A DNA stretch of 64,000 bases from the IMG/VR virus record IMGVR_UViG_3300025168_000033, positions 64,001-128,000 of that record; one strand, given 5' to 3'. The first letter of the stretch is position 1, and each line of letters begins with the position of its first letter. The notes beneath the pieces are model-generated. The model did no database searches. It was not told the origin of the DNA and saw only the letters and a list, made by a program, of their open reading frames with translations. The position numbers and the translations under genes were made by a program. Of the stretch, positions 1,681 through 61,317 are shown in pieces. Origin of the DNA: a virus.

Positions 1681-2160
1681 TTATATGTCTAGTTCATCAG
1701 AATCCTCTTCCTCGTCTTCCTTTTCATCAGATTTTTTAGATTTTTCTGCATCTTCTTCATCATCTTTCTTTACGATACCTTTGATTTTTGCCATCTTTTC
1801 AATGTCATTGACTGCGTTTTGTAATGCAGTCTTTTTAGCTTCTGTGTCCGCTTCTGGAGCATCATCAGATTCTTTTTCATCTTCGGTTGGATCTTCCTTT
1901 TCCTTTTCATCTTCAGTATCATCATCAGCACCACTTAATAAATCATCTAATGATTCTTCATCCTCGTTTAATGATTCTTGGATACATCCACATGATGCTA
2001 ATGCTCCCATAATTTTAGCTTTAGGAATATTTAATATATCCAAATATGCATAAATTGCTTCATTAGTTTTACCTTCAGATTTTAGCTTGTTTACAATAGC
2101 AACTAGGTAATCTGCGGTAAAGCTTTCGTTTAAGAAATCCTTATAATTTTTAAGCTTCAT
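1681..2160 (-). CDS. Highly acidic putative internal head / prohead core protein with CTS-like leader
   Basis: Starts MKLKNYKDFLNES; internal IQESLNE; D/E-rich. Confidence 0.6.
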   Translation of the reverse strand: MKLKNYKDFLNESFTADYLVAIVNKLKSEGKTNEAIYAYLDILNIPKAKIMGALASCGCIQESLNEDEESLDDLLSGADDDTEDEKEKEDPTEDEKESDDAPEADTEAKKTALQNAVNDIEKMAKIKGIVKKDDEEDAEKSKKSDEKEDEEEDSDELDI

Positions 2161-2207
2161 CGTGTAATTGTTTTATTTAGTTTATATATTTAAGTTGTTC
2201 AGTCTTT

Positions 2208-3122
2208 TTATTGGGGTGCAGCACCACCTTTTGATTGTGAATTTGGCCAAGTCCCATTATCAATTTCTGGATCGTCAATTGAACTATTTGTAGATTTTTG
2301 ATTGCTTGTAACAGATTCAGATCCCATTTTAAATGTAGGATCTATATAAACTCCTGCGGCTGCTGTAGCTCCTAGTCCAGTAGCACCAATATTATCAAAG
2401 ACCGATATATGAACCATACGATTTCCATTAAACATTTCAGTATTCTCAGCACCAGTGAATCCATTTTTAGCATTTTTAAATACTGGATATGTTACATCGA
2501 CTTCAGTACTAAAGGTAATTTTAAATTCTTTTTTGTCTGATGCTCCTTCACTAAATTCAATATTTCTTTCTAACGCATTTGAATCAGACATACTAAACGA
2601 ACAAGGTAATCTAATACCCGCAACATTTATTTGAAAATTATTTGTTTTATATGTATTTCTTATTATTGATTCCAGCGCTTTAAATTGATCTAGAACAGTA
2701 TCAACAACAATAGTAACATCCATTGAAAGTTTAATTGGAATAGGAATAAATTCTGCATTATAGGTTTTAAGAACACCATTTTCAACCTGCTTATCATAGG
2801 TTCCGCGAACATATTGACTTGTATTTTTTGATGGATCAATATCAACACCACTCATATCTACGTGAGCTCGAGGAATTTGATTATAAACGGTTTCTGCTAC
2901 AGTACAATCTGGATCTGTCAAGATATCCTTTAAAAATATATCTTGCATAAATCTTTCATCTCCTGTAGTAGTAAAGAAAAAGGGAATATCAACTATTTCA
3001 GTTTCCGTATTTGATATTTTTTGTTCCCAACATATTCTATTTTGTAAATGTGCTAGAAATCCAACTATTATGTTTCTTAATAATACATCGTCTTTATTAA
3101 ATTCTAAATCGTATACTGACAT
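2208..3122 (-). CDS. gp15: Tail sheath stabiliser / tail completion protein (T4 gp15-like)
   Basis: VDIPF..ERF, QIPRAHVDMSGVDIDP and PIPIKLSMDVTI..LDQFKALESI pattern typical of gp15. Confidence 0.7.
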   Translation of the reverse strand: MSVYDLEFNKDDVLLRNIIVGFLAHLQNRICWEQKISNTETEIVDIPFFFTTTGDERFMQDIFLKDILTDPDCTVAETVYNQIPRAHVDMSGVDIDPSKNTSQYVRGTYDKQVENGVLKTYNAEFIPIPIKLSMDVTIVVDTVLDQFKALESIIRNTYKTNNFQINVAGIRLPCSFSMSDSNALERNIEFSEGASDKKEFKITFSTEVDVTYPVFKNAKNGFTGAENTEMFNGNRMVHISVFDNIGATGLGATAAAGVYIDPTFKMGSESVTSNQKSTNSSIDDPEIDNGTWPNSQSKGGAAPQ

Positions 3123-3135
3123 TAAATTGTTTATG

Positions 3136-3145
3136 TTATTTATCT
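3136..3145 (-). promoter_or_regulatory. T4-late-like promoter motif AGATAAATAA
   Basis: Upstream of the gp15-like gene. Confidence 0.6.
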
Positions 3146-16719: not shown

Positions 16720-17358
16720 TTAATCAATACCCATTACGTTATTAAAACCTTGCTGTTTCAAAGCTTTTATTCCGTTATCTTGATGTCTTTTATTTTCACC
16801 TTCAACTTCGTAATATCCGCCATTTGCATCAACATGAGCTTTAATTTTTTTAGATGCAAAGTATTTTTCAATATATAATAATTGTTGAGACCTATTAAAA
16901 TCTCTAAATTCATTATGATCGAATTCCATTGATTCATTTACGAATCTTGAGAATTTCATAAATGCTGATTCATCTACTTCATCCTCGTCTTCATCATCAA
17001 TATCGCCATTTAAGCTATGAATTTTATCACCACTTCCGTTAGGTAATCCACCGTCGGCTCCAGGCATTGAAGTAGGACCCATTCCATTTACATTTCCTGG
17101 AGTTACTTCTTCTATCAATTGATCATTATCAAATTTTATGGCTGAAGTTGTATTATAATCACTAATTCTTGATTTAATACCATAAAGATCCATCATCATT
17201 TTAACAACAGTAGAACCTTTCTTTTTATCTTTCAATTGAAAGTAAGTTACTTTATCATTTGATTGAGATATTATTTGACTCACATATTGACTCAACTCTT
17301 TAGAAATATCTAATGCTGAATCACCTGATAATTGTCCTTTAAAGTTTGATTCGTTCAT
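16720..17358 (-). CDS. Putative internal head protein with an internal CTS-like motif
   Basis: MNES start, acidic linker, internal VDESAFMKFSRFVNES. Confidence 0.6.
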   Translation of the reverse strand: MNESNFKGQLSGDSALDISKELSQYVSQIISQSNDKVTYFQLKDKKKGSTVVKMMMDLYGIKSRISDYNTTSAIKFDNDQLIEEVTPGNVNGMGPTSMPGADGGLPNGSGDKIHSLNGDIDDEDEDEVDESAFMKFSRFVNESMEFDHNEFRDFNRSQQLLYIEKYFASKKIKAHVDANGGYYEVEGENKRHQDNGIKALKQQGFNNVMGID

Positions 17359-17364
17359 ATTGAT

Positions 17365-18102
17365 TTATTTTTTATAAGGAGCTCTAACATCGATTTTACC
17401 GCCACTTAATTCTTTTGCAACTTTATCAACCTGTTCTGGTTCAATCTTTGGCATATCCGCTCTTGGTGGTGCACCTTCTGGTGGTCCAACTCTTTGAATA
17501 GCAGCTAAGGCTTTTGCAATTGTAGCTTCACCTCTTTTTTCAAACCAAGCAATAGCTTTTTCTTTATTATAGAATTTTTTATCCATTCCTTCACCGTCAT
17601 AGATTGCAGCTTTAACATTATCCATAGTTGATGTGAAAATATTAGCATCTCCAGCAACAGCTAGACCTCTTTTATTTCCTAATGCATCTCCGGCAGCTCT
17701 AAGAACTGGAACTAAATCACCAATATTTAATTCAGATTGTACTCCTGTTACTTTTGCAGAAGGATTGTTGAACATTGTAGCAGCCCATCTATGATGACCA
17801 TCTAGAATTCTGTTATCTTGTGAAATAACAGCACCAAGATCTCCACCTTCAACTCCTACAATAGCCATACTTAATGCCTTAGCTAAATAAACTGCATCCT
17901 GTGATGGCTTTAATGATTTAGCTGGAATAGAAGCTTTTTTAGTTACTACTACATCGTCTTGAGTATCTCCATCTTTTTTACCAGCTTTAAAAAATTCCTT
18001 GTCATTTTTATTTCCAGGATTTGGAAATTTTGATGGATCGATTTCTTTAGTTTTTAAGCTTTCATTAATAACGAATTGCTCAAATGATATTAATTTTTTC
18101 AT
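17365..18102 (-). CDS. ParB/Sulfiredoxin-family protein with CTS-like leader
   Basis: LKPSQ..VISQDNRILDGHHRW; leader MKKLISFEQFVINES. Confidence 0.8.
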   Translation of the reverse strand: MKKLISFEQFVINESLKTKEIDPSKFPNPGNKNDKEFFKAGKKDGDTQDDVVVTKKASIPAKSLKPSQDAVYLAKALSMAIVGVEGGDLGAVISQDNRILDGHHRWAATMFNNPSAKVTGVQSELNIGDLVPVLRAAGDALGNKRGLAVAGDANIFTSTMDNVKAAIYDGEGMDKKFYNKEKAIAWFEKRGEATIAKALAAIQRVGPPEGAPPRADMPKIEPEQVDKVAKELSGGKIDVRAPYKK

Positions 18103-18144: not shown

Positions 18145-18459
18145 TTAGTCATAAACTACTGCACCATCATCACCATAAGTAAATACTGCGGTTTCACCTT
18201 CTAGATCTAAAGCAATTACATCTTCATCAGGCTCTAAAAAATCTCCGGCAGTTCCAGAATCGTCATATTTTTTAAGGTCTTTCATCTTGCCTTTAGCAAT
18301 AACATTATAGACATCTCCATGATAATCCTCAGCTTTATCACCAACCTTTACTTTATTAAAAGGCTTTATTTTTTTAGCTTCATTAACTTCATCGTTAGTT
18401 GATTCTTTTAAATTATAAGATTCATTTACAAAATCTTCAAATGATTCAATATTTCTCAT
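18145..18459 (-). CDS. Putative internal head protein (small beta/SH3-like domain)
   Basis: Leader MRNIESFEDFVNES, then LKES and VNEA. Confidence 0.6.
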   Translation of the reverse strand: MRNIESFEDFVNESYNLKESTNDEVNEAKKIKPFNKVKVGDKAEDYHGDVYNVIAKGKMKDLKKYDDSGTAGDFLEPDEDVIALDLEGETAVFTYGDDGAVVYD

Positions 18460-18487: not shown

Positions 18488-20713
18488 TTAAAGTGATCTA
18501 TATTTCTTTTGAATAGCCTGCCAAACTTTTTCTGGTGTAGTATTTCTACCGGTAGCAAATTTATTAACGCTAGTAGAACCACGTTTATTAGGTGAAGTTA
18601 TTGATAATTGAATGAAAGGTTTGTCACCAATTTCGTTATATTGGAATGCCCATATTAATGCTAATTCATCAACTTTAACAGTGAATTCTACTGCACCATA
18701 AAAGTTTTCTTTTACATCTTCAACCTTCATATTTCCTAAATATTTGTCACCCTTTAATAAAAATTCCGTAAAAGATTTATACCAGTCGTTCGATCTTTTT
18801 TCAAATTCTGACAACGGCCATGCTTCATTAACAGATTCAAATTTCAGATTTTGAGTAACTTCTGGTGGAAGATCGTTATATTCAGAATCAATATATTTTT
18901 CTACATTATCTGGGTCTTTAACTGCTGTTAATAGTGCTGATTCTCTTTCGTCATCACTTAATTCATCCCATTTAATTGATTTTTGAGATTTCTCGTTTAA
19001 AAATTCGTCTAGTGATTCCGCAACTAATTTCATGTTTGGCTTTGATTTTGTCTGATTAATATTATCAAATATTCGTTGTCCAAATTTAGAAAGTTGATAT
19101 GTTTTTTCACCGCTTTCATTTTTTGATACTTTAAAGTAATTCATGTTTGATTTGAACCATCGAGTTTGATTAACTGATTTTCCTAAATCTTCTTCAACAC
19201 GAATTAACATATCCTTGATTTGTTCTTCGGTCATTATATTGTTACCAATATATTTGATAATTGAATTACGTAAGGGTGCTTTTTCATTTATACGTCTAGC
19301 ATCATAAATTCCATATTTACGTTTAATAGTATGTTTAGCTTCATTAACACTAACTATCTTAGCTTGTTTTATACGTGATTTATTTACTAATTCTTTTTCT
19401 TTCGTTTCAGCTTCTTCTTTAGTTTTAAATATTCCAGATTTAGCATTTTCCCCATCTTGGGTTTTATATTCAACTCTAAAACCTTCCCCTGATTGATTAA
19501 CTGATTCAGTTATAGAATTCAACATTTCCTGTTTACTAAATACTAAGCTTTTTGGATGACTTGAAAGTTCAAATGTAGTACTATACATAGCACTAAGTTT
19601 AGCACCAATTTCTTTACCATTTTTATCTGTTACGATATATTCATTGAAAGCGTTTGACTTTCTACCATAATCAGTAACAGTATAAACATTAGTATCTGTA
19701 TTAAATTTAGATCCGATTTCTATTTTATTGAAAATTTTAGTACCTAGCATACTGATTTTACTTCCAGAAATAGTTCCCTCATTTAAGTCATAAGATTCAC
19801 TAAATAATCTTCTACCTGTTTTATCTTCTAGATGTAATTTTGCTTTAGGATATTTCTCTTGCATTACATTAAATGTAGCAGGAGCAACATCTGGAGTAGA
19901 AACTGGTTCTTGATGAATTACTTTGCCATCTTGTATAACTACAATTACTGCTGGATAGCTTCCTTGAGTTGCAGCTTTATATACTTTACGTCTAGATGCT
20001 TCAGTAACTAATGATTCATCCATTACCATATATTTAGATGGAACTATAAATTCTCCTTGTCCACTTTTTACAATCATTCCTTTATTACCACGAGTCATCT
20101 TAATAACTTTATAAACATCGTCATAATCTAAAGAAACACCTTCCTTATCTAGAATTTCTTCAACAAAATGTGGAGCTCCCAGAACTACAAAATCACCTTT
20201 CTTGAATTTAGATTCGTTAATTTCTTTATTTTCCTCATTTGCTAAAGGATTAGGAATAGTAATTGATTTACCTTGATAAAATCTCTTTTTTAGTTTATCA
20301 ATAGTATCATTCTTCTTTAAATAGTAAGGATGCTCATATTGATCTGAATCATCTCCTACAATAAGAATAATATGTTCTCCTTCATCAGAACTATATATTT
20401 TAAAGTCTGAACCTAATACTTTACCTTTTATATTCTTTTTAGCCTCATTTACAGATTCGGTATATAATATTTCAGAATCAAAATTATATTTAGGACCATC
20501 TTGTTCAGCATCTTGTACATCTATAGTTCCGTTTTTATTAATATTGATAACTCTGAATTCAGTTCCAACTGAGGCACCTTTATGCATTTCTTCATCTCTA
20601 TCATCGTCACCAGTTTGATATATTACAACAATATCACCGACTTTTGATCGTTCGCCATTGTAATATTTTGCAGATGCCTCATTCAAGAAGTCTTCAAATT
20701 TTTCTATTGCCAT
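18488..20713 (-). CDS. Putative internal head polyprotein of small domains separated by xNE/xxE sites
   Basis: MAIEKFEDFLNEA; YTESVNEA, INES, MDESLVTEA, FSESYDLNEG, ITES, VNEA, VAESLDEFLNE, FESVNEA. Confidence 0.65.
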   Translation of the reverse strand: MAIEKFEDFLNEASAKYYNGERSKVGDIVVIYQTGDDDRDEEMHKGASVGTEFRVININKNGTIDVQDAEQDGPKYNFDSEILYTESVNEAKKNIKGKVLGSDFKIYSSDEGEHIILIVGDDSDQYEHPYYLKKNDTIDKLKKRFYQGKSITIPNPLANEENKEINESKFKKGDFVVLGAPHFVEEILDKEGVSLDYDDVYKVIKMTRGNKGMIVKSGQGEFIVPSKYMVMDESLVTEASRRKVYKAATQGSYPAVIVVIQDGKVIHQEPVSTPDVAPATFNVMQEKYPKAKLHLEDKTGRRLFSESYDLNEGTISGSKISMLGTKIFNKIEIGSKFNTDTNVYTVTDYGRKSNAFNEYIVTDKNGKEIGAKLSAMYSTTFELSSHPKSLVFSKQEMLNSITESVNQSGEGFRVEYKTQDGENAKSGIFKTKEEAETKEKELVNKSRIKQAKIVSVNEAKHTIKRKYGIYDARRINEKAPLRNSIIKYIGNNIMTEEQIKDMLIRVEEDLGKSVNQTRWFKSNMNYFKVSKNESGEKTYQLSKFGQRIFDNINQTKSKPNMKLVAESLDEFLNEKSQKSIKWDELSDDERESALLTAVKDPDNVEKYIDSEYNDLPPEVTQNLKFESVNEAWPLSEFEKRSNDWYKSFTEFLLKGDKYLGNMKVEDVKENFYGAVEFTVKVDELALIWAFQYNEIGDKPFIQLSITSPNKRGSTSVNKFATGRNTTPEKVWQAIQKKYRSL

Positions 20714-20730: not shown

Positions 20731-21585
20731 TTATTTATCTTCAGATAGTTCGTCTTTTAATTGAGGATAATATTGATGTGTAGTTGTATCAGTCATGGAT
20801 TTGAATGATTTTATATCATCTTCTATTAAAGCTTTACGAACTTTAGATGCACTAATATTATCATCAGTACGTTTTATTTCATGAGCTTTAAATTCTGGAT
20901 CTACATTTAAATCCAATCTATAAGAATCTTTTTGAATTTGACCGCTATAGGCTTTTAATCTATCTGATCCAGTACCCCACAAAATAGGCTCATATTCAGG
21001 ACGTAATTCATTATAAATTGTATCTATACCCGCTCTTGAAATAGTTCTGAATCCTTCTATAAATTTATGTTTCTTTGCAAGATCGTTAAATATTTGCTCT
21101 ATTAAACCTTCACTAAACGGTGTTTTTTCCTTGTTAATTTTCTTTGCACGCACCATAAGTACTATTACAGGATATCCATTTTCTTCGGACAAAGATTTAA
21201 GAACTTTTATATGTCCTAGCGTCGGAGGTTGAAAACGTCCCGCAATAATATTAACTTTTTTATTGCCAGGTTCTGTTGAATCTACCTTTAAAGCTTCATT
21301 TAAAGATTCAGATATTTTTCCGGTTTTAGATACTTTATAATATGTAGGTATTTTATCCCAATCTTTACCGTTAGTTTTTATGCCTGAATACATTTGATTT
21401 TTATCACTTTTCCATGCACCACCAGTTCCATCTTTATATTTGATCATGGTTGGTGTTTCTTCATAAAACCACCAATCGCCATCAGAATGCTGTGCTAAAT
21501 ATCTTGCCCAATCTGGGATATTTTTAAATTTAGGAAATTGTTTTCCTTCATTTATGAAATCAAAAAATCTTTTGAATCTATTCAT
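20731..21585 (-). CDS. HxGH-class nucleotidyltransferase (cytidylyltransferase/NMNAT-like) with an extra N-terminal domain and CTS-like leader
   Basis: GRFQPPTLGH, GSDR, ISASKVRKAL; leader MNRFKRFFDFINEG; internal ISESLNEA. Confidence 0.85.
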   Translation of the reverse strand: MNRFKRFFDFINEGKQFPKFKNIPDWARYLAQHSDGDWWFYEETPTMIKYKDGTGGAWKSDKNQMYSGIKTNGKDWDKIPTYYKVSKTGKISESLNEALKVDSTEPGNKKVNIIAGRFQPPTLGHIKVLKSLSEENGYPVIVLMVRAKKINKEKTPFSEGLIEQIFNDLAKKHKFIEGFRTISRAGIDTIYNELRPEYEPILWGTGSDRLKAYSGQIQKDSYRLDLNVDPEFKAHEIKRTDDNISASKVRKALIEDDIKSFKSMTDTTTHQYYPQLKDELSEDK

Positions 21586-22835: not shown

Positions 22836-23990
22836 TTATTTTATTTTCATTCCAATCATCATATTCTTATCGGAAATACCAATAACAATACCATCTCTTT
22901 CATATTCAGTTCCGTCAGCATAAGCACCAATTGGCTTAACATATTTAAATCCAAGATTTTTAATAAGTTTTGAAGTAATATCAAATCCTAGACTGGATTC
23001 AAATCCAGTAACTTTACCAAATCCAGTAACAAATCCTGTTTTAGCTGCAATTATACCTTTAGGATTTTTTTGAAATGCTTCAGGAGCAACAGTCTTAAAT
23101 TCTTTTACAAATGCTTTCCATATTGGATCACTAGATAATGTTTTTCTGTCCCAAGTAAAATCACGAATCATTGAAAAACTATCCGATTCAAATACTTCTA
23201 TTCCATTATCACCATAGAATTTTTTAATTATATCGTAAAGATCGTCCTTTGCATCTTGATTATTTTTTATAAAAACTTTTAACGGTCTTATTAGATTTAA
23301 AAAGTTTTTTCTACTAAGCTTCATTTCTTCATCTATAAATTCAGACTCATTAATAGATTTAAGATTTAATTCAATTAAAGTATTAACACCATCTCTATGA
23401 ACCTCAGAAAATTTGACATCACCAAAATCAGATAAAATATCTTTTAAAATTGTTGTATCTAATTCTATTATCTCATCTTTTAAATGTTCATAAGCAGAAG
23501 TATAAAATTGTAATTTGCCACTTCTTAATCGTGCTATTAATATTCCAATATTTTCAACTGCTAGCCAGGCATGCCTATTTCTTTTGCCTCTTCGACTTAC
23601 TTTACGAGCCATTAATTCTTCTATTAAAAGCGCTTGAAATCTAGAACTAGCCTGATCAACACCACTATAAGTAATATTATCTGTTACAAAAAAATCATAT
23701 AGTGTATCAGCTTTAAAAGTTTCATTTAATGGAAATGACCATTGTCTTGATGACATTGGTGCATAAGGAGCTAATTTCTTCCATGCCTTTTCAGCATCTT
23801 TACGTTTACCAGCTTTATCCAGATCCTGTATCATTTGATTAGTTGTTTCCCAATCAGCAATACCAGCCTTATAAGCTCTCGGATCATCACTCATCATATA
23901 AGTCCAATCCATAGATTTTAATTGTGCCTCAAGATCCTTGATAGTAACTCTTTCATTTAAGAAATCGTCAAACTTTTTAAATTGTCCCAT
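22836..23990 (-). CDS. Putative internal head multi-domain protein
   Basis: Leader MGQFKKFDDFLNER; internal LNET, INES, VFES; DW.Y..SDD.R domain. Confidence 0.6.
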   Translation of the reverse strand: MGQFKKFDDFLNERVTIKDLEAQLKSMDWTYMMSDDPRAYKAGIADWETTNQMIQDLDKAGKRKDAEKAWKKLAPYAPMSSRQWSFPLNETFKADTLYDFFVTDNITYSGVDQASSRFQALLIEELMARKVSRRGKRNRHAWLAVENIGILIARLRSGKLQFYTSAYEHLKDEIIELDTTILKDILSDFGDVKFSEVHRDGVNTLIELNLKSINESEFIDEEMKLSRKNFLNLIRPLKVFIKNNQDAKDDLYDIIKKFYGDNGIEVFESDSFSMIRDFTWDRKTLSSDPIWKAFVKEFKTVAPEAFQKNPKGIIAAKTGFVTGFGKVTGFESSLGFDITSKLIKNLGFKYVKPIGAYADGTEYERDGIVIGISDKNMMIGMKIK

Positions 23991-24004: not shown

Positions 24005-24943
24005 TTAATTCCATCCGCCAGAATAGTAATCACTACCACCTGAAACTTTTGGTATTTTGAATGTTTTTCCGTTTATTGTAAATGTAGCTGTGTAAAAATA
24101 TGTAGTAGAAAATGAAGAACTAACAACTGCGCTATGCTCACTTCCTAGCATCTTGATTTCTTTTACATCTATTTTATCCCACTTAACATCATCACCTTTT
24201 AGTATAATTTCTTTAATGTATGCAAATGGTTTAGCCATTGGAGGTTGAACCCATGCCAATTTACCAAGATTAGTTCCGTTTCCACCAGGTCTATCTGCAA
24301 CTTTATACATGTCTGTCTTATATTCTATTAGTTCTCTGATATTGAAATCCGTCCACCAACTTCTTGCAAATTGAGCCATCTTTGGAATTCCAAATTTTAA
24401 TATATGAGCCTTCTCAACATCAGTAAAAGTTTTAATTATATCATAAAGCTTGTATTTTTTGTTAAGTTCACGTCTATCTTTACTTGCAAGACCAGACCAT
24501 AATGCATATATAATCTCATCATCGTCATTATCTTCAATTAGCTTAGTATATGAAGCTGCTAATCTAACTGCTTCTTCCTTGCTTCTAGGATCTGCATTAT
24601 TACGATGTGCATCTTTATAATCATCACCAAAGTTTCTGAATACCTCTGTAAATTCCTTTATCATCTTTGAATTTGGTGTTCTACCTGTTCCAGCTGCAGC
24701 TAATATATCATTTTTATCGTTTTCACCGAGTTCAGCAAATTTAGGATCTTTAACAAGCTTTGCTAATGTTATATTTGTATCAATTCCAGCATTTTTTAAT
24801 GACCAAGCAAGATCTCCTTGTTTACTTTCAACATCACCTTTACTATAAGAATTCTTTATTGTATAAACTTTCTTTACAACTTTCATATAATCGCCGTAAT
24901 AAGCTTCGTTTAAAAATTGTTCATAGGATTGTATCTTCTTCAT
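24005..24943 (-). CDS. Putative internal head protein
   Basis: Leader MKKIQSYEQFLNEA, identical to that of the neighbouring gene. Confidence 0.65.
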   Translation of the reverse strand: MKKIQSYEQFLNEAYYGDYMKVVKKVYTIKNSYSKGDVESKQGDLAWSLKNAGIDTNITLAKLVKDPKFAELGENDKNDILAAAGTGRTPNSKMIKEFTEVFRNFGDDYKDAHRNNADPRSKEEAVRLAASYTKLIEDNDDDEIIYALWSGLASKDRRELNKKYKLYDIIKTFTDVEKAHILKFGIPKMAQFARSWWTDFNIRELIEYKTDMYKVADRPGGNGTNLGKLAWVQPPMAKPFAYIKEIILKGDDVKWDKIDVKEIKMLGSEHSAVVSSSFSTTYFYTATFTINGKTFKIPKVSGGSDYYSGGWN

Positions 24944-24952: not shown

Positions 24953-25384
24953 TTATTTGTTTAGGTCTTTATTAAAATCAATGTAACTATCACGATCTGT
25001 AAGTTTTTTCATTCCTTGAACCATATCTCTAGTTAATGATTCTTTATTATCGTATGCAATAACTAAAAAGAAGTCTGCGTTGTTACCACTGTCATTTTGT
25101 CTATCTGAAGATTCCCATCCCGGACCCCATTTCACCCAAGATCCATTTACTGATTCAAGATTTTTCACATCCTTAGTATAAAGATCACCAGCAGCATTGG
25201 TTGTTAACAAATATGCAAAGTCTTCTTTATATTTGAAGTTTTTGTCTTTTGGTTCATAAACATCGAATCCGAGTTTCTTAAGACCTTTTTTGATATTAGG
25301 CATATCACGTATAATGTAATGTGGTTCATATCTAGAAGTATTAGCTTCGTTTAAAAATTGTTCATATGATTGTATCTTCTTCAT
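24953..25384 (-). CDS. Putative internal head protein
   Basis: Leader MKKIQSYEQFLNEA; GATATATAA motif upstream at 25403-25412. Confidence 0.65.
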   Translation of the reverse strand: MKKIQSYEQFLNEANTSRYEPHYIIRDMPNIKKGLKKLGFDVYEPKDKNFKYKEDFAYLLTTNAAGDLYTKDVKNLESVNGSWVKWGPGWESSDRQNDSGNNADFFLVIAYDNKESLTRDMVQGMKKLTDRDSYIDFNKDLNK

Positions 25385-25525: not shown

Positions 25526-26455
25526 TTATGCCATTTCACTTGGATAAGGAAATCCAGCCTTGACAATTCCTTCTTTATATACTTTTATTATTTCACTTAA
25601 TTTGTGTTTGTGAATAAATTTAGATGAATTCATCCAGTTCCAAATAGATTCGAATGAATTTAAATCATTCACCTTTCCTTCGGGTCCTAAAACAAATTTA
25701 GCAATATCATCAATATTTTTTGTAATAGCTTTGTCTGCACCTTTAATTGTAGATGCATTTTTCTTTCTTCCCCTTTTACCGTCAAATGATTTAGTTTGTA
25801 TTTTTAAACCGTCATGTGCAGTAAGAGTATATTTTTGAAAGTCTTTTACTAATCCTTCATATTCACCGCCAAATTCTTTCTTATAGATATTTGGTTCACC
25901 ATCAAAATCGATATTTTGAATAATATCATAAATAAGTTTAGTTCTATAAACTCCTTTATATTTTGATTCTTCTTTTGTAAAGTCTGGTGAATGATAAATG
26001 AATGTTGCTAATTTAATATCATCAACAACCATAAAATCTATTTGAACAAATTTATCTGTAATCTTGCCTTTTTCATCATACTGTGGAAATTTAATGTTTG
26101 TAACACCTAATCCTTTAGTAAGATTTGTTTCATATTTAGGAAATGTTTTTGTTAGTTGATTATAAACTTCCGTAACAACATCGCCAAATGATAATTTATT
26201 TGCAGCACCATAAACTAATCCGTTTATTGAAATATCAATATCACCAGATGTAGATCCAGCTTTCTTTTTAAATGTACTTCCTAATACACCATATTCATCT
26301 TTATTTAAACCAAGAACTGGCTTGATAAATGTCTTTAATAAAACGTCAAATGTCGGTTTTTGATATTCCGCTGGAATAGGATGAGTGCCATTAAATGCAT
26401 TACCTGATTCCAGTAATCTTTCTTCAACAAAAGCTTCAAATAATTTAAATTCCAT
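25526..26455 (-). CDS. Pol-beta-superfamily nucleotidyltransferase with CTS-like leader
   Basis: LGS...SGDIDISI ... VQIDFM catalytic triad pattern; leader MEFKLFEAFVEERLLES. Confidence 0.8.
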   Translation of the reverse strand: MEFKLFEAFVEERLLESGNAFNGTHPIPAEYQKPTFDVLLKTFIKPVLGLNKDEYGVLGSTFKKKAGSTSGDIDISINGLVYGAANKLSFGDVVTEVYNQLTKTFPKYETNLTKGLGVTNIKFPQYDEKGKITDKFVQIDFMVVDDIKLATFIYHSPDFTKEESKYKGVYRTKLIYDIIQNIDFDGEPNIYKKEFGGEYEGLVKDFQKYTLTAHDGLKIQTKSFDGKRGRKKNASTIKGADKAITKNIDDIAKFVLGPEGKVNDLNSFESIWNWMNSSKFIHKHKLSEIIKVYKEGIVKAGFPYPSEMA

Positions 26456-26470
26456 TTATTGATTATATTT

Positions 26471-26896
26471 TTAAGCTATTTTATACAATGCCTTATATAC
26501 TGTATTAATTTGCTTTTCTAATGTATTTAACTTTTTAGGATCCATTTTTTTAATAGATTCAGCAACCCAATACTGTGTACCTTCATGACCTAAAAGAGCA
26601 ACTAAGTCACCGAATGCTTTCATAGTCGAACCTGCATTAGCTTCATTTACTACATCATTAACCGATTCATAAACATCGATTTCTGGATTTTTTGATTTAA
26701 TTAATTTCTTTTCCGCCGAGTCAATAGCATCACTTAAATTATCCTGATATTCAGGATTAATAAATCCTTCCCAATCACCAGAATTTTGTAATTCAGTTAA
26801 TCCAACTATACAGGCTTCTATTTCCATCTCTTCTAATTTAATATTAGATGCTTTACCCTCAGTTAAAAAGTCTTTATATGCTTTTATATTTTTCAT
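26471..26896 (-). CDS. Putative internal head protein
   Basis: Leader MKNIKAYKDFLTEG; internal VYESVNDVVNEA. Confidence 0.6.
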   Translation of the reverse strand: MKNIKAYKDFLTEGKASNIKLEEMEIEACIVGLTELQNSGDWEGFINPEYQDNLSDAIDSAEKKLIKSKNPEIDVYESVNDVVNEANAGSTMKAFGDLVALLGHEGTQYWVAESIKKMDPKKLNTLEKQINTVYKALYKIA

Positions 26897-26913: not shown

Positions 26914-27357
26914 TTATTTAGTTGTAGAATCCATACTTGGTGTATCTTTATCACCAGTAACTTTAAATGTTTCTCCTTCAAATTCAAATTCATCTTTACC
27001 ATCATCGATAGCTTTTTGTCTAGCTGCAGAAAATGCATTACCTTCTTTTATTTTAGCTTCATTAGCTGCTTCTTCTTCTTCACTTTCACCATCACCGTAT
27101 TCATTAGCTGCTTCTTCTTCTTCTTCACTTTCACCATCACCATATTCATTAGTTTTAGCTTCCATCATAGGTTTTAAAGAATCATAAAATTTAATTTGAT
27201 CCTCTTCGCTTAGTTCGCTTGGACTAGATACTTTAAACTCTTTTAATTTTTCGTTAAAAAGTTGAATATGCTTTTTATATGCATTCTTTTTTGAAGCTTC
27301 AGCTATTGCTGCAGTTCTTTGTTTCTTGAATTTTGAAAATTTTAAAATATTTCCCAT
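26914..27357 (-). CDS. Acidic putative internal head / core protein with a tandem repeat
   Basis: MGNILKFSKFK leader; NEYGDGESEEEE(E)AA x2; IKEGNAFSAARQKA..GKDEFEFEG motif; GATATATAA upstream at 27381-27390. Confidence 0.6.
   Translation of the reverse strand: MGNILKFSKFKKQRTAAIAEASKKNAYKKHIQLFNEKLKEFKVSSPSELSEEDQIKFYDSLKPMMEAKTNEYGDGESEEEEEAANEYGDGESEEEEAANEAKIKEGNAFSAARQKAIDDGKDEFEFEGETFKVTGDKDTPSMDSTTK
27058..27152. repeat. In-frame tandem repeat (42 bp + 45 bp + partial)
   Basis: TTCATTAGCTGC(TTC)nACTTTCACCATCACCRTA twice. Confidence 0.9.
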
Positions 27358-33609: not shown

Positions 33610-33960
33610 TTAAAAGAATTTCTTACCCATAGAAGAACCTAATGCAGCTCCAACTAATCGTGAAGTTAATAGATCGTAAAATACACCAGATTTAATTCCT
33701 AATGCTTTAGCAATCATTTTACCTACAGATTTTCCTAATGCAAATCCAGTAAGTCCACCTAGTAACGATCCAAAGATACCTTCATTGGTAAGCTCATGTT
33801 CCAATTGTTCCAGAGTCATTTCACTTTCAATAAATCTTTGATATGCCTGTTCAACCAGTAACTCTTCTTCGGCTGTAATTCCCTCAGTAAGATTTTCCTT
33901 GAACGATGGAATTAAATCTAATTCTTTATCTTCATTAATTAATTCTTGAAATGTTTTCAT
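33610..33960 (-). CDS. Putative packaged membrane-active (glycine-zipper) protein with an acidic propeptide
   Basis: MKTFQELINE leader; acidic residues 1-60; TNE/GIFGSLLGGLTGFALG...LVGAALG; GATATATAA at 33977-33986. Confidence 0.6.
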   Translation of the reverse strand: MKTFQELINEDKELDLIPSFKENLTEGITAEEELLVEQAYQRFIESEMTLEQLEHELTNEGIFGSLLGGLTGFALGKSVGKMIAKALGIKSGVFYDLLTSRLVGAALGSSMGKKFF

Positions 33961-34554: not shown

Positions 34555-34557
34555 AAT

Positions 34558-58475: not shown

Positions 58476-58476
58476 A

Positions 58477-59790
58477 TTAGTATACTTTTAATTTTGTTGG
58501 TTTTATCTTTGTATATTCAACAACTTTTACATTGCTTTTAAGTGAAGCACTATCGCTAATATTTCCTTCTCTAAAAATACCGCCATTCATAGTTCCATTG
58601 AATATTGTTTCCTTACCGTTAACATAACAATCAAAAATATCTACAGTGGAATTGCAATATGAATTTTTAAGTTTTGAATTTTTAATTTCTGTATTTGCAT
58701 AAATATTGTTTACTTCTATATTAGAATTAATTACAGTACATTTATATAAATTACATTTATTTAATACTGAATCATAAATTTCTGAATCAACAACTTCAAT
58801 ATCTCTTAGATTTAATGATTTAAATTTTGCATCCTTGATTTGCATCCTAGATAAAAATGTATCATAATTAATAGAGCCTGTTTTTAAATTGCTATTAACT
58901 AATATACAAAAAATTTTATCTTTAATTTTTGGCCAATGAGTTTTTAATACCTGCTCATTATCATTAAGATCGACTGTTAATTTTAATTCTGGAAATTCCT
59001 TTTTGAATTTCATCGGTGATTCATAACCTATTAAAACATCACGTAAATCATCAAGAATTAATTCTAATTTAATTCTATTTTTTTCAGTATATTCATTAGA
59101 ATTTAAAGTTGATGCTAAACTTATCATATAATAGTCTACACAATCTAATGCCTCATTTATTTTCTTTTCATATTTTTCACCACCAATATAGTTAAATCCT
59201 ATTTGATTAGTCAATATGCCAGTATAATCAATTCCGTACAAATTACTATTAGGAAGTTTATATCTAGTAGAATCTATAGTTTTTATATTATCAACAATTT
59301 TATTTACAGGTACAATATGATACATCGAACGCACAAATGGAGAGTCCTTCTGTAGTTCAAATTTTGACCATATAAGACTCTCATCAAAATTCAATATGTA
59401 CCTTAATCTATCTATATTTGATACATCAGGGATCAACTGTGAACCTTCTGCAACACTTAATTTGACTCTAAGAAATGTTTTAGGATCTGTATAACCAAAT
59501 TCACGTATTTTTTCAAATACTTTAATAATTGTTAATCTAGCAGTTTGATAATCTAGATTGCCTGTTATTAATTGTACGTATGGATTTAAAAATGCATTAT
59601 TGAATTTCAATTTATATGTGTAATCATCACATATTATATTGTCTTCGTTATCTTTAATTATTTCTTTGTTAAGATGATCCTTTAGAATTTGTACTGTTTT
59701 ATCAACGCCATAATAAGAAAAGAATTCAAATTTTAATTGAATTTCAAACTGATTATAAACTTTGCTATATTTTACAGGATCAAATGACAT
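58477..59790 (-). CDS. Degenerate amidoligase (COOH-NH2 ligase)-like protein with a C-terminal beta-helix
   Basis: QLKFEFFS, QLITG, GYTDPKTFLRVKLS and QIGFNYIGG map to amidoligase motifs with catalytic residues substituted; C-terminal I..S repeats; GATATATAA at 59809-59818. Confidence 0.55.
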   Translation of the reverse strand: MSFDPVKYSKVYNQFEIQLKFEFFSYYGVDKTVQILKDHLNKEIIKDNEDNIICDDYTYKLKFNNAFLNPYVQLITGNLDYQTARLTIIKVFEKIREFGYTDPKTFLRVKLSVAEGSQLIPDVSNIDRLRYILNFDESLIWSKFELQKDSPFVRSMYHIVPVNKIVDNIKTIDSTRYKLPNSNLYGIDYTGILTNQIGFNYIGGEKYEKKINEALDCVDYYMISLASTLNSNEYTEKNRIKLELILDDLRDVLIGYESPMKFKKEFPELKLTVDLNDNEQVLKTHWPKIKDKIFCILVNSNLKTGSINYDTFLSRMQIKDAKFKSLNLRDIEVVDSEIYDSVLNKCNLYKCTVINSNIEVNNIYANTEIKNSKLKNSYCNSTVDIFDCYVNGKETIFNGTMNGGIFREGNISDSASLKSNVKVVEYTKIKPTKLKVY

Positions 59791-59838
59791 GGATATATTA
59801 CGTTTAAGTTATATATCTACTTTGCTAATTGATGAATT

Positions 59839-61317
59839 TTACTTTACCTTGATTCCGTATGTTTTATCAGACTTAGCTAAGGCTGTATCGTATTTTCCAT
59901 CAAACCCGCTTACAACAAAAGTTTTTTGTGGATTGACAACGACTCCTATTTTTTCCATCAATTCCCTATTAATAAGCATAGGAGTAGATTTAGATGAACG
60001 ATCAACAACGCTAAAATGCATTTTACTATATGATATTCCTCTAAATTTAATATCAAGTTCTATTATAGGACGTTTTGTAACCGTATCACCTACTTCGGCA
60101 TTAGCGTAACCAACAATTTTTGATTTCATTTTTTTATTTCCAGCAGACCAATTTAAATAGCCATTTTTTTCTGACATTTTATCCGCATGAACTGATGACG
60201 ATTTAGTACCGTTTCCACTATCAAATTTAGCAACATATTCACCAAATCCAGTAAGATTAACAACTTCCATATATCCTATTTCAGTAACATTGACAGACCA
60301 ATTAGATTTATCTTTTATGAAATCTATAATATCTTGTAATATAGATTTTCCAATAACTTTTTTAATTCCTTTAGTCCCAGGAGAAGCATTTACTTCAAGT
60401 ATATAATTCTTTTTAGTTTTATCATCAACAATAATATCAACACCACACCAATGACATCCCATAGCATCTGCAGCCTTAACTGCTAAATTAATTTGTTCTT
60501 CAGTTAATTTTACATTTTCAACAGATCCACCAAGTGAATGATTAGTTCTAAAATCTTTTTTGTCTCCTCTATTACGTCGCATATATCCAATGATTTTAAC
60601 ATTGTCTTTATTGTTTCCGTGATAGTCAAATCTTTTAGTTAAGACCTGAATTCTAATATCGTAATCCGAATCAATTTTTTCTTGAATTAAAGTTTCAGTA
60701 TCAGAAAGTTTCCACATTGTCTGTAAAACAGATTTAAGCGATCCTTGTGAATCAATAATAGAAACACCTATTCCTTGAGATCCTGAAAGAGTCTTTAAAA
60801 TTATAGGAAATTTTCCACCTATTTTTTTAATTGCATCATCTAATGAATCTATACTAGGAACTAATGCCGTTCTAGGCGTCGGTAATAAATGCTGCTCTAG
60901 TTTTTGTGCAGTTAAATATTTATTTTCACAATCCAGGATTGAAGATAATGAATTAATGCAGAAGAATCCATTACTTTCAAATAATGATAGAATTCCACGA
61001 GTATATGTGTTTTTTACAACACCACGTCTAGCTATTATAACAGTATTTTCTTTATTAATAACAAATCCTTTTGATTCACCTTTATTTGTTAGCGTAATAT
61101 TTCCATCATCATCTGGATCACTAATAGTACAGTCTTTTAAGCAAAATAAAAATCCGTTCATTCCAGAATTTACAGCCTTTTCAATTAAAAACTGTGGTGT
61201 ATCTTGTGAATCTGGATCTACTGGCGTATTTGTCATTACAACAAGATTTAATTTATTACCTAGCTGAACTGCTTCAGTTAGCATATCATCAAATCTCTTG
61301 AACCTTATATTTTGCAT
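59839..61317 (-). CDS. rimK: RimK-family ATP-grasp ligase fused to a RimK-associated retropepsin-like protease domain, with CTS-like leader
   Basis: CENKY, PTPRT, PIILKTLSGSQGIGV, IQEKI, DIR, FRTNHSLGG, GVDI, LEVNASPG; C-terminal AKFDSGNG...LINR; leader MQNIRFKRFDDMLTEA. Confidence 0.88.
   Translation of the reverse strand: MQNIRFKRFDDMLTEAVQLGNKLNLVVMTNTPVDPDSQDTPQFLIEKAVNSGMNGFLFCLKDCTISDPDDDGNITLTNKGESKGFVINKENTVIIARRGVVKNTYTRGILSLFESNGFFCINSLSSILDCENKYLTAQKLEQHLLPTPRTALVPSIDSLDDAIKKIGGKFPIILKTLSGSQGIGVSIIDSQGSLKSVLQTMWKLSDTETLIQEKIDSDYDIRIQVLTKRFDYHGNNKDNVKIIGYMRRNRGDKKDFRTNHSLGGSVENVKLTEEQINLAVKAADAMGCHWCGVDIIVDDKTKKNYILEVNASPGTKGIKKVIGKSILQDIIDFIKDKSNWSVNVTEIGYMEVVNLTGFGEYVAKFDSGNGTKSSSVHADKMSEKNGYLNWSAGNKKMKSKIVGYANAEVGDTVTKRPIIELDIKFRGISYSKMHFSVVDRSSKSTPMLINRELMEKIGVVVNPQKTFVVSGFDGKYDTALAKSDKTYGIKVK

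What the first reader, a model, noticed from the sequence alone, without database searches (positions are those of the whole stretch)
1681..61317. Shared capsid-targeting-like leader marks about 14 unrelated proteins as a packaged, protease-processed, injected cargo set
Seen: near-identical N-terminal motifs on unrelated ORFs: MKLKNYKDFLNES (1681), MKKLISFEQFVINES (17365), MRNIESFEDFVNES (18145), MAIEKFEDFLNEA (18488), MNRFKRFFDFINEG (20731), MGQFKKFDDFLNER (22836), MKKIQSYEQFLNEA (24005 and 24953), MEFKLFEAFVEERLLES (25526), MKNIKAYKDFLTEG (26471), MGNILKFSKFK..IAEA (26914), MKFKRFNEFLNEG (31765), MKTFQELINED (33610), MQNIRFKRFDDMLTEA (59839). None of the replication or tail genes has it, and many of these genes have a late-like promoter. 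Known: the T4 internal-protein capsid targeting sequence is MKTYQEFIAE, and gp21 protease cleaves after (L/I)xE. Inference: the tag works as a general address label that loads enzymes (NTases, ParB/Srx, RimK) into the head, so they act before phage transcription starts.
Basis: partly seen in the sequence, partly recalled or inferred. Interest (0 to 1): 0.85.

Follow-up and report, generated by a model that had tools for sequence, protein, structure and literature searches.

The report
Capsid-loading leader on many phage proteins
An uncultured marine T4-type jumbo phage starts about a quarter of the genes on this contig with one 13-residue tag that closely matches phage T4's "load into the head, then clip off" signal and ends in the motif its own head protease appears to cut, so it probably ships some 25 unrelated proteins inside the capsid, though no experiment shows this yet.

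Summary
All 15 quoted N-termini exist. They are minus-strand ORFs, and the coordinates given are their 3' ends. The 108-kb contig holds 26-27 such genes out of about 109.

The tag is M-K-N-[LIF]-x-S-[YF]-[DE]-[EDQ]-F-[LIV]-N-E|[SAG]. It is conserved as peptide, not as DNA. The mature parts show no similarity to each other.

Just outside the window the phage encodes a T4-type head module:
- a gp20-like portal;
- a gp23-like capsid protein;
- a gp21-family (S77) protease fused to a scaffold.

[ILV]-N-E-[SG] is the most enriched motif in that scaffold across 120 homologues. It also heads the capsid protein and joins modules of cargo polyproteins. The tag matches T4's MKTYQEFIAE at the four residues that T4 genetics mapped.

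Other supporting facts:
- Tagged genes share a late-type promoter with structural genes.
- Their products are mostly basic.
- They turn over fast between relatives.
- They include a RimK-like ligase, nucleotidyltransferase(s) and a probable ParB/Srx-like protein.

Best reading, about 0.75: an expanded T4-style capsid-targeting and processing system. Packaging, cleavage and injection are all inferred. This scan has already reported similar leader systems in other uncultured T4-like jumbo phages. I found no published description.

The parts
1681..2160 (-). Leader-tagged gene, 159 aa, MKLKNYKDFLNE|S; function unknown
   Evidence: no Pfam family above cut-off
16720..17358 (-). 212-aa ORF that starts MNE|S. 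It lies in frame directly after the TAA stop of the upstream tagged gene. It has a full internal leader, FMKFSRFVNE|S, at residues 130-139. Probably a two-module cargo.
17365..18102 (-). Leader-tagged ParB/Srx-like protein, 245 aa, MKKLISFEQFVINE|S, with an invariant DGHHR motif
   Evidence: DGHHR is present in 120/120 homologues, and long forms carry internal full leaders at module junctions. The AF2 model has pLDDT 90 with leader residues 1-12 below 50. ParB/Noc/Srx are the top fold hits, Foldseek E 0.016-0.4 and VIA Z 4.0-4.7.
18145..18459 (-). Leader-tagged gene, 104 aa, MRNIESFEDFVNE|S, with a second VNE|A site at residue 27
18488..20713 (-). Leader-tagged 741-aa polyprotein. It has 8 modules of 55-172 aa separated by [LIV][NT]E|[SAG] sites.
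   Evidence: A stand-alone 84-aa tagged protein of relative G002 aligns to residues 233-306, with its FLNE|G over the internal LVTE|A. A second G002 protein aligns to 463-561.
20731..21585 (-). Leader-tagged cytidylyltransferase-like nucleotidyltransferase, 284 aa, MNRFKRFFDFINE|G
   Evidence: Pfam CTP_transf_like 6.9e-6; PHROG cytidyltransferase 2e-14; the G002 homologue keeps a leader-like start
22836..23990 (-). Leader-tagged gene, 384 aa, MGQFKKFDDFLNE|R; function unknown
24005..24943 (-). Leader-tagged gene, 312 aa, MKKIQSYEQFLNE|A; function unknown
   Evidence: Its leader DNA is nearly identical to that of the next gene, while the mature parts are unrelated.
24953..25384 (-). Leader-tagged gene, 143 aa, MKKIQSYEQFLNE|A; own late-type promoter
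25526..26455 (-). Leader-tagged gene, 309 aa, MEFKLFEAFVEE|R; possible Pol-beta-type nucleotidyltransferase (lead only)
   Evidence: Atlas feature search scores 0.96-0.97 to viral clusters named nucleotidyltransferase / NTP_transf_2. No Pfam or NCBIfam hit.
26471..26896 (-). Leader-tagged gene, 141 aa, MKNIKAYKDFLTE|G
26914..27357 (-). Weak variant, 147 aa, MGNILKFSKFKKQRTAAIAE|A. The 20-residue leader ends as T4's IAE|A does and resembles T4 IPI's 19-residue propeptide in length.
31765..32829 (-). Leader-tagged gene, 354 aa, MKFKRFNEFLNE|G; own late-type promoter
33610..33960 (-). Short-form leader, 116 aa, MKTFQELINE|D. It is 7/10 identical to the T4 IPII/IPIII CTS MKTYQEFIAE. A second site, NLTE|G, lies at residue 26.
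59839..61317 (-). Leader-tagged RimK-like ATP-grasp ligase, 492 aa, MQNIRFKRFDDMLTE|A, sitting among baseplate/tail genes
   Evidence: Pfam RimK 8.2e-34. By inspection of the listing, most of the 120 best homologues start with a leader-like ..F[VL](x)NE|[AS]K; a loose pattern flagged 47 and the strict leader pattern 48. The Mosig homologue starts MQVQPFKNYLEE|A. The YerA41 homologue is annotated as a particle protein.
61335..61343 (-). Example of the late-type promoter motif GATA[TA]ATAA, 26 nt upstream of the RimK-like gene. The same motif starts at window positions 33985, 32859, 27389, 25411, 20739, 18487 and 18128.
   Evidence: The same motif sits 21-43 nt upstream of the sheath, tube, portal, protease and baseplate genes. 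A gp55-like late sigma factor is present.

Best explanation
The 13-residue leader is an expanded version of the phage T4 capsid targeting sequence (CTS).

**Proposed mechanism (inferred)**
1. Late in infection the tagged proteins are made together with the head proteins.
2. The short amphipathic leader has its hydrophobic face formed by L/I/F at -9, Y/F at -6, F at -3 and L/I/V at -2. It docks on the assembling prohead core, which here is built from a protease-scaffold fusion protein.
3. Once the shell closes, the gp21-family protease cuts after [ILV]-N-E. This removes the leader, separates the modules of cargo polyproteins, frees the protease from the scaffold, chops the scaffold and trims the capsid protein.
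4. The mature, mostly basic cargo stays with the DNA and is delivered with it.

**Shown by sequence**
- The shared leader exists and is selected at the peptide level.
- The T4-type head genes are present.
- The leader's end is the same motif that is enriched in the scaffold.
- The leader corresponds to the T4 CTS position by position.
- The leader is used at internal module junctions.
- Tagged and structural genes share a late-type promoter motif.
- The cargo set turns over rapidly between relatives.

**Inferred only**: binding to the core, cleavage, retention in the head and injection.
For: 1. **T4-type head module, just outside the window.**
   - Gp23 capsid protein, Pfam 6e-36.
   - Portal_T4, 1.8e-68.
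   - Peptidase_S77, 42.5 bits against a cut-off of 27, at the start of a 612-aa protein.
   - A profile of that protein finds the T4 gp21 structure 5JBL, E 1.2e-5.
   - A gp2-like end protector, a gp4-like head-closure protein and a gp55-like late sigma factor are also present.
2. **An independent estimate of protease specificity.**
   - In 120 protease-scaffold homologues, the tripeptides most in excess in the scaffold part are NES, INE, VNE, LNE and NEG.
   - The median is 5 [LIVM][NT]E[SAG] sites per scaffold, against 0.33 in shuffles and 0 in the protease domain.
   - The sites fall in 35 alignment columns. The most conserved (41/45) lies at the protease/scaffold boundary.
   - On this contig there are 8 sites in 452 scaffold residues against a background of 0.40 per 1000 (Poisson P 3e-11).
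   - The capsid protein starts MYGHKMINE|A...KWAPIIE|S. This is conserved in relatives and matches T4 gp23 KWKPLLE|G and gp24 MAKINE.
   - T4 gp22 shows the same pattern: 16 [LI]xE against 5.5 expected.
3. **The leader ends in exactly this motif.** Glu is present in all 26, [LIV] at -2 in 25/26, and S/A/G follows in 20/26.
4. **Match to T4.**
   - T4 IPII/IPIII start MKTYQEFIAE|A.
   - T4 genetics places targeting at residues 4 and 7 and processing at residues 8 and 10 (PMC9026906).
   - These align with the most conserved leader positions: aromatic at -6, F at -3, L/I/V at -2 and E at 0.
   - One window gene starts MKTFQELINE.
5. **Portability.**
   - Full leaders occur inside longer homologues at module junctions.
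   - A stand-alone tagged protein of relative G002 aligns inside the 741-aa polyprotein, cut site over cut site.
   - In the AF2 model the leader is a detached low-confidence tail on a confident fold.
6. **Late expression.** GATA[TA]ATAA lies 13-32 nt upstream of 12/26 tagged genes. Among the 83 others, 18 have it, nearly all structural genes (Fisher P 0.02).
7. **Cargo properties.**
   - Median pI is 8.9 against 6.0. 17/26 against 21/83 have pI above 8 (P 3e-4).
   - Only 7/26 have a homologue in G002, against 62/83 of other genes (P 2e-5). Most of those homologues start with a leader or a leader-like sequence; one shows none, possibly a mis-called start.
8. **Spread.**
   - Relative G002 (246 kb) has 21-23 tagged genes.
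   - 42 of 118 IMG/VR loci show N-terminal tags, up to 11 per locus.
   - RimK-like homologues share contigs with protease-scaffold homologues.
Against: - No experimental datum exists for this phage or a close relative. There is no virion proteome, N-terminal sequence or expression timing.
- The receptor for the leader is unknown.
- Twenty-six cargo species on a contig judged 37% complete far exceeds the handful known in T4. Some may not be retained or injected.
- P1' is R, N, D or L in 6 of 26 leaders, so not all may be cut.
- Cultured distant relatives with the same protease-scaffold architecture lack the tag array: PTm1 scores 0/323 and Mosig 0/196 with the strict pattern. A looser pattern finds 4 PTm1 genes and, in Mosig, only the RimK-like homologue. 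The system is therefore clade-specific, and no cultured model is at hand.
- The YerA41 particle proteome that contains the RimK-like homologue also lists replication enzymes. It is weak support.
- The late-promoter assignment rests on a motif and its position only.
Confidence: 0.75

Rival explanations
1. The tag does send proteins to the prohead core. Most of them, however, are assembly accessories: extra core or scaffold subunits, size determinants, or peptides released into the head. They would be degraded and expelled during maturation, like T4 gp22, gp67 and gp68, and would not be delivered to the next host.
For: - The 741-aa protein has 8 cut sites, the same number as the scaffold.
- Internal sites are 7-fold enriched in tagged proteins: 2.9 against 0.40 per 1000 residues.
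- Two tagged genes lie directly after the capsid gene.
- T4 core proteins gp67 and gp68 also carry L/I-x-E sites near their N-termini.
Against: - The modules between sites are 55-172 residues long and exist as stand-alone tagged proteins in a relative.
- Several cargoes are confidently folded enzymes: RimK-like, NTase and ParB/Srx-like.
- The set turns over rapidly, unlike core assembly proteins.
- The cargo is mostly basic, like the T4 internal proteins.
Confidence: 0.15
2. The shared peptide is a recognition tag for some other common partner, not for the capsid. Candidates are a modifying enzyme (RiPP-like maturase), a chaperone or a cytoplasmic protease. Its resemblance to the T4 CTS would then be convergent.
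For: An earlier case in this scan (e1-127136) found a shared phage N-terminal tag that tracked a radical-SAM enzyme, not the capsid.
Against: - No radical-SAM gene is present on this contig or in the 246-kb relative.
- The tag's last four residues are the motif enriched in the scaffold and at the capsid protein N-terminus.
- It co-occurs with the S77 protease-scaffold gene.
- It also matches the T4 CTS at all four genetically mapped positions.
Confidence: 0.06
3. The conserved 5' ends act at the nucleic-acid level. They would serve as recombination linkers for swapping gene cassettes, or as a translation-initiation or mRNA regulatory element. The peptide would be incidental.
For: - Adjacent genes 24005-24943 and 24953-25384 have nearly identical leader DNA on unrelated bodies, which suggests leader-mediated recombination.
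- The cargo set is highly variable.
Against: - Synonymous sites vary freely across the 24 aligned leaders.
- Amino-acid properties, not bases, are conserved across distant relatives.
- Full leaders also occur far from any start codon, at internal module junctions.
- Recombination at leaders may still occur as a by-product, as suggested for the T4 ip loci.
Confidence: 0.03

Closest known systems
Phage T4 capsid targeting sequence (CTS) of internal proteins IPI, IPII and IPIII, and the short propeptides of Alt and gp24, removed by the gp21 prohead protease (Mullaney & Black 1996; reviewed in PMC9026906 and PMC3012670)
   Same: - A short N-terminal propeptide is shared by unrelated proteins.
- It has an aromatic residue at -6 and -3, L/I at -2, and Glu before the cut followed by a small residue.
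- A gp21-family protease, gp20 portal and gp23 capsid protein are present.
- The same site motif is dense in the scaffold.
- Cargo is basic and evolves fast.
- The tagged genes appear to be late genes.
- One gene here starts MKTFQELINE, against T4's MKTYQEFIAE.
   Different: - The usual form is 13 residues with an MKN-h-x-S extension and a near-invariant Asn at P2.
- At least 26 tagged genes lie on a partial contig, against a handful in T4.
- The leader also links modules inside polyproteins.
- The protease is fused to the scaffold in one 612-aa protein.
- Cargo includes sizeable enzymes (RimK-like, NTases, ParB/Srx-like).
- Nothing has been shown experimentally.
Ejection / inner-body proteins of giant phages phiKZ, 201phi2-1 and SPN3US, processed by the gp21-like proteases gp175 / gp245 (PMC5694885, PMC9026906)
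   Same: Dozens of proteins are packaged in the head. A gp21-related protease cuts after Glu at a short motif. Propeptides are thought to target proteins into the prohead. The protease is processed at its C-terminus.
   Different: - In those phages most propeptides exceed 100 residues and are not one shared short tag.
- Their motif is S/A-x-E.
- Their capsid and portal proteins are far more diverged from T4.
- Their portal carries a huge propeptide.
Encapsulin cargo-loading peptides (from my own knowledge, not checked here)
   Same: A short portable address peptide directs unrelated enzymes into an HK97-fold shell.
   Different: The encapsulin peptide is usually C-terminal and is not cleaved. 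It binds the shell protein itself, and there is no DNA or delivery step.

Membership tests
T4-type capsid targeting sequence / gp21-processed propeptide | A short (10-19 residue) N-terminal peptide shared by otherwise unrelated proteins | tested here: met
   26 genes carry leaders of 10-15 residues. No BLASTP similarity is found between the mature parts.
T4-type capsid targeting sequence / gp21-processed propeptide | The peptide ends in L/I-x-E followed by the mature protein | tested here: met
   [LIV] at -2 in 25/26; E at 0 in all 26 (column invariant in alignment A1); S/A/G at +1 in 20/26.
T4-type capsid targeting sequence / gp21-processed propeptide | Residues equivalent to T4 CTS positions 4 and 7 (targeting) and 8 and 10 (processing) are conserved | tested here: met
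   Y/F at -6 in 25/26, F at -3 in 21/26, L/I/V at -2, E at 0. These align with Y4, F7, I8 and E10 of MKTYQEFIAE (PMC9026906).
T4-type capsid targeting sequence / gp21-processed propeptide | The genome encodes a gp21-family protease with gp20-type portal and gp23-type capsid proteins | tested here: met
   Pfam Peptidase_S77, Portal_T4 and Gp23 all score above their cut-offs. The profile matches PDB 5JBL.
T4-type capsid targeting sequence / gp21-processed propeptide | The same cleavage motif is used in the scaffold/core and capsid protein propeptides | tested here: met
   T4 comparison
T4-type capsid targeting sequence / gp21-processed propeptide | Tagged proteins are made late, together with head proteins | tested here: inconclusive
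   A promoter-like motif is shared with structural genes, and a gp55-like sigma factor is present. No expression data exist.
T4-type capsid targeting sequence / gp21-processed propeptide | Physical incorporation into proheads, removal of the leader, and presence in virions | not testable with these tools
Peptidase S77 (T4 gp21 prohead protease) | The sequence matches the family model above the curated threshold | tested here: met
   42.5 bits against a cut-off of 27, over residues 22-137. PHROG head maturation protease, 4.5e-37.
Peptidase S77 (T4 gp21 prohead protease) | Catalytic His and Ser are conserved | tested here: inconclusive
   H70 (ELDHP) and S125/S126 (HISSR) are invariant in 45 homologues and align to the 5JBL chain. 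I did not verify which residues are catalytic in T4.
RiPP-like leader served by a radical-SAM maturase | A radical-SAM/SPASM enzyme is encoded with the tagged genes | tested here: not met
   PF04055 is absent from this contig and from the 246-kb relative. The control genomes all score.
ParB/Srx fold (claimed for one cargo, 17365-18102) | ParB/Srx core fold with the DGxHR-type motif | tested here: inconclusive
   - DGHHR is invariant in 120/120 homologues.
- All top structural hits are ParB/Noc/Srx, but they are weak: Foldseek E 0.016-0.4; VIA Z 4.0-4.7 with 87 residues aligned at rmsd 3.8.
- No Pfam family was found.
RimK-type ATP-grasp ligase (cargo 59839-61317) | Match to the RimK ATP-grasp domain model | tested here: met
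   PF08443, 8.2e-34, 117 bits against a cut-off of 21, over residues 131-334.

The most novel reading that the evidence does not exclude
The leader is a programmable address label used by a very large clade of uncultured marine jumbo phages; the protease-scaffold family has more than 5000 members.

- It would dock on the protease-scaffold fusion by imitating the scaffold's own conserved internal helix, LHFLxF[LV]xE|SKR.
- This would load 25-50 fast-evolving proteins per virion, partly as polyproteins that are cut into modules inside the capsid.
- The cargo includes a RimK-type ligase, nucleotidyltransferases and a ParB/Srx-like protein.
- The cargo would be injected as a first-strike counter-defence and takeover arsenal.

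If so, the tag would be a sequence-only way to list the injected effectors of thousands of uncultured phages.
Probability: 0.3. Interest if true: 0.8.

Novelty: new variant of a known kind. Interest (0 to 1): 0.62.

Why it matters
Proteins injected with phage DNA act before any phage gene is expressed. The known examples are key counter-defence or takeover factors: T4 IPI* against type IV restriction, Alt, and the P1 Dar proteins. They are normally found only by virion proteomics of cultured phages.

If this tag is a true capsid address, the injected arsenal of a huge uncultured marine phage group can be read from sequence. That arsenal is large, modular and fast-evolving. It contains enzymes not previously linked to capsid delivery, including a RimK-type ligase conserved with its tag across many phages.

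The system would also give a compact natural tag and protease pair, with a defined motif, for loading foreign proteins into capsids of Bacteroidota-type phages.

Tried and rejected
- **Nearest relatives.** Megablast of 17 kb of the window against cultured and deposited phages gave no match.
- **First IMG/VR scans.** An over-specific leader pattern found nothing. A looser pattern worked.
- **Protease-scaffold model.** AF2 gave only a medium-quality model (pLDDT 60). It shows a beta-rich protease domain, a disordered linker holding the first site, long helices, and a confident C-terminal helical domain beginning at the internal CTS-like motif. It says nothing about where leaders bind.
- **Cargo annotation.** Pfam, PHROGs and NCBIfam left most cargo unannotated. 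The Atlas search gave no usable hit for the 384-aa cargo.
- **Cultured model.**
  - With the strict pattern neither PTm1 nor Mosig has a hit.
  - A looser pattern gives 4 of 323 genes in PTm1, about background, and only the RimK-like homologue in Mosig.
  - A separate DNA-pattern scan of PTm1 found no match.
  - Cluster look-up gave no accession or organism names for the NCBI-sourced RimK homologues.
- **YerA41 particle proteome.** It includes the RimK-like homologue but also many replication enzymes, so I count it as weak.
- **Radical-SAM maturase rival.** Tested and rejected.
- **Clamp-binding (PIP-like) reading.** Rejected by inspection: the Gln is not conserved, and the spacing of hydrophobic residues does not fit.
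- **Sec/Tat/lipoprotein signal.** Rejected by inspection: the leader is acidic, 13 residues long, and has no hydrophobic core.
- **Amphipathic helix.** The hydrophobic moment of the consensus leader is only marginally above shuffles (0.42; 6% of shuffles reach it). The amphipathic-helix picture is therefore plausible, not demonstrated.

Full report
**1. What is in the sequence**

The window is positions 39446-103445 of a single 108,411-bp viral contig. The contig has about 30% G+C, and nearly all genes lie on the minus strand. CheckV rates it 37% complete, so it is probably a fragment of a jumbo-phage genome.

The coordinates given are the stop-codon ends of minus-strand ORFs. Each tag is therefore encoded at the other, higher-coordinate end.

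I scanned every called gene on the contig with the strict pattern [FYW]xx[FWM][LIV][NTSE]E in the first 20 residues:
- 24 of 109 genes match.
- Only 2 of 1514 internal 20-residue windows match.
- No gene matches among 323 in Tenacibaculum phage PTm1 or 196 in Pelagibacter phage Mosig.

With two variants added, the contig has 26 tagged genes, 12 of them outside the window.

Aligned on the final Glu, the tag reads M-K-N-[LIF]-[KQ]-S-[YF]-[DE]-[ED]-F-[LIV]-N-E, followed by S, A or G in 20 of 26. Seventeen leaders are exactly 13 residues long.

Synonymous codons are used freely at the conserved positions. Selection therefore acts on the peptide. After removing the leaders, no pair among the 26 is similar by BLASTP at E<=1e-3.

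**2. The surroundings**

Upstream of the window lies a T4-type head module in the order:
- gp55-like late sigma factor
- a tagged gene
- gp4-like head closure protein
- gp2-like end protector
- gp20-like portal
- a 612-aa protein whose first ~150 residues are a gp21-family (Peptidase_S77) protease
- gp23-like major capsid protein
- two more tagged genes

A profile of the 612-aa protein finds the solved T4 gp21 structure 5JBL.

The capsid protein's relatives are uncultured huge phages (56% identity), the Prevotella Lak phages, Sphingomonas phage PAU and Tenacibaculum jumbo phages. PTm1 annotates the equivalent gene as 'prohead core scaffolding protein and protease'.

Inside the window the untagged genes fall into two groups:
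- Replication and recombination genes: SbcCD, helicase, UvsX, a split DNA polymerase, primase, SSB, UvsW and an RNA ligase by family matches, plus the RNR large and small subunits, which I judged from size and sequence only.
- Tail and baseplate genes: gp15-like, gp6-like and others.

None of these carries the tag.

**3. An independent read-out of what the protease cuts**

In T4 the scaffold gp22 is chopped at L/I-x-E. I confirmed 16 such sites in gp22 against 5.5 expected.

I therefore asked, without assuming a motif, which tripeptides are over-represented in the non-protease part of 120 homologues of the 612-aa protein.
- The largest excesses are NES, INE, VNE, LNE and NEG.
- Each scaffold has a median of 5 [LIVM][NT]E[SAG] sites, against 0.33 in shuffles. 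The protease domains have none.
- The sites occupy 35 different alignment columns. The best conserved (41 of 45 sequences) lies exactly at the protease/scaffold boundary. This parallels the C-terminal self-processing described for gp21-type proteases (PMC9026906).
- On this contig the scaffold has 8 sites in 452 residues, against a background of 0.40 per 1000 (P about 3e-11).
- In the AF2 model most of these sites fall in low-confidence linkers between helices.

Other head proteins show T4-like sites too:
- The capsid protein starts MYGHKMINE|A..KWAPIIE|S. This is conserved in relatives and recognisably homologous to T4 gp23 KWKPLLE|G and gp24 MAKINE.
- The protease itself starts MKNLLILE|R, like T4 gp21 ..LLIE|T ('LIE-9' in PMC9026906).

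The leader ends in precisely this motif.

**4. Comparison with the T4 CTS**

T4 IPII and IPIII begin MKTYQEFIAE|A, and IPI begins MKTFKEFTSTTTPVSTITE|A. The review of Black's work states four points (PMC9026906):
- The first 10 residues suffice for encapsidation.
- Residues 4 and 7 matter for targeting.
- Residues 8 and 10 matter for processing.
- gp21 cuts after L/I-X-E.

Aligned from the cut, those four positions coincide with the four best conserved leader positions here: aromatic at -6 in 25/26, F at -3 in 21/26, L/I/V at -2 in 25/26, and E at 0. The gene at 33610-33960 starts MKTFQELINE, 7 of 10 identical to T4.

**5. The tag behaves as a portable module**

- *RimK-like cargo.* It was scored against its 120 best homologues (47-98% identity). 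By inspection of the listing, most begin with a leader-like ..F[VL](x)NE|[AS]K; a loose pattern flagged 47 and the strict pattern 48. Several lie on the same long contigs as protease-scaffold homologues. The homologue in the T4-like Pelagibacter phage Mosig starts MQVQPFKNYLEE|A.
- *ParB/Srx-like cargo.* All 120 homologues keep DGHHR. Most start with the tag directly before a conserved mature start. Longer forms carry complete internal leaders at the junctions between modules, some including the Met.
- *The 741-aa window protein.* It parses into eight modules separated by cut sites. An 84-aa stand-alone tagged protein of relative G002 aligns to residues 233-306, with its FLNE|G placed over the internal LVTE|A. 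A second G002 protein matches another module.
- *Structure.* In the AF2 model of the ParB/Srx-like cargo (pLDDT 90), residues 1-12 are a detached low-confidence tail.

These facts argue against any function that needs a true N-terminus or a start-codon context.

**6. Expression, properties and turnover**

- *Promoter motif.* GATA[TA]ATAA, close to T4's late TATAAATA, lies 13-32 nt upstream of 12 of the 26 tagged genes. It also precedes the sheath, tube, portal, protease and baseplate genes. No recognised replication gene has it within 45 nt of its start. Other tagged genes sit in tight arrays downstream of such a site.
- *Charge.* The mature cargo is basic: median pI 8.9 against 6.0, and 17/26 against 21/83 above pI 8 (P 3e-4). 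The T4 internal proteins are also basic.
- *Turnover.* Only 7 of 26 tagged proteins have any homologue in the 246-kb relative G002, against 62 of 83 other genes (P 2e-5). Most of those homologues start with a leader or a leader-like sequence; one (G2_47921) shows none, possibly because its start was mis-called.
- *Relatives.* G002 has its own 21-23 tagged genes. The 462-kb metagenomic phage LR756500 has about ten.
- *IMG/VR.* A degenerate DNA scan found the tag at ORF starts in 42 of 118 loci, with up to 11 per locus.

**7. Cargo identities**

- RimK-type ATP-grasp ligase, 59839-61317.
- Cytidylyltransferase-like NTase, 20731-21585.
- A possible second NTase, 25526-26455. This rests on an Atlas lead only.
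- A probable ParB/Srx-like protein, 17365-18102. The motif is invariant, and the fold hits are weak but consistent.
- One small protein with a transmembrane stretch.
- The rest have no detectable family.

**8. Rivals**

- *Radical-SAM maturase tag.* This had been found for another phage tag in this scan. It is excluded here because neither this contig nor G002 encodes a radical-SAM enzyme.
- *Nucleic-acid-level function.* This conflicts with the codon data and with the internal leaders. However, the nearly identical leader DNA on the adjacent genes 24005 and 24953 suggests that leaders can also mediate recombination.
- *Assembly accessories.* The live alternative is that many tagged proteins are destroyed during maturation instead of being delivered as cargo. 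I cannot separate retention from expulsion with sequence alone.

**9. Verdict**

The capsid-targeting reading is well supported by convergent sequence evidence, but no step of it has been shown physically. Injection and early action remain conjecture.

I found no published description of such tag arrays. The T4 literature anticipates the principle. This scan has already reported closely similar systems in other uncultured T4-like jumbo phages. I rate it a new variant of a known kind.

Noticed in passing
window 370-400 (minus strand): The 420-aa gene (370-1632) ends ..CTC AAA AAA AAA GCT TGA. A -1 slip on the A9 run would read K-S-L-N-E|A into the 98-aa ORF 77-373, whose only start is TTG. That would recreate a protease site at the junction. 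This is a candidate programmed frameshift fusing a module through a cut site (lead from note e1-5729801).
   Followed up: partly
window 17355-17368 (minus strand): The ParB/Srx-like gene ends ..PYKK-TAA. The next ORF follows in the same frame as ATC AAT ATG AAC GAA TCA (I-N-M-N-E|S). The two genes therefore look like a cargo polyprotein split by one stop codon, or one that is joined by read-through.
   Followed up: partly
contig 33343-35181 (outside the window; L002:13343-15181), residues 461-471: The protease-scaffold protein contains a conserved internal leader-like helix, LHFLHFVTE|SKR (consensus LHFLNFLxE|SKR; F465, F468 and E471 are invariant or nearly so). It forms the first helix of a confidently modelled C-terminal helical domain. 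Cargo leaders may imitate this segment.
   Followed up: partly
window 24824-24943 and 25265-25384: Two adjacent genes share an identical 14-residue leader with almost identical DNA (one synonymous difference in 42 nt), but their bodies are unrelated. This suggests recent leader-mediated recombination or duplication.
   Followed up: no
window 9247-10419 and 14936-16345: The family-B DNA polymerase is split into two genes about 4.5 kb apart. The N-terminal part is at 14936-16345 and the C-terminal part at 9247-10419. A 255-aa gene of unknown function, the ribonucleotide reductase genes and a pyrophosphohydrolase gene lie between them.
   Followed up: no
L144 (Pelagibacter phage Mosig, MT647606) and L143 (Yersinia phage YerA41, MW570730): Homologues of the RimK-like cargo occur in cultured phages that also have S77 proteases. 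Mosig_00005 starts with a CTS-like MQVQPFKNYLEE|A. YerA41_066 is annotated as a particle ('structural') protein.
   Followed up: partly
contig-wide, upstream of start codons: Start codons are preceded by A/T-rich sequence with no Shine-Dalgarno-like purine run. Together with the capsid protein's relatives, this fits a Bacteroidota host.
   Followed up: no
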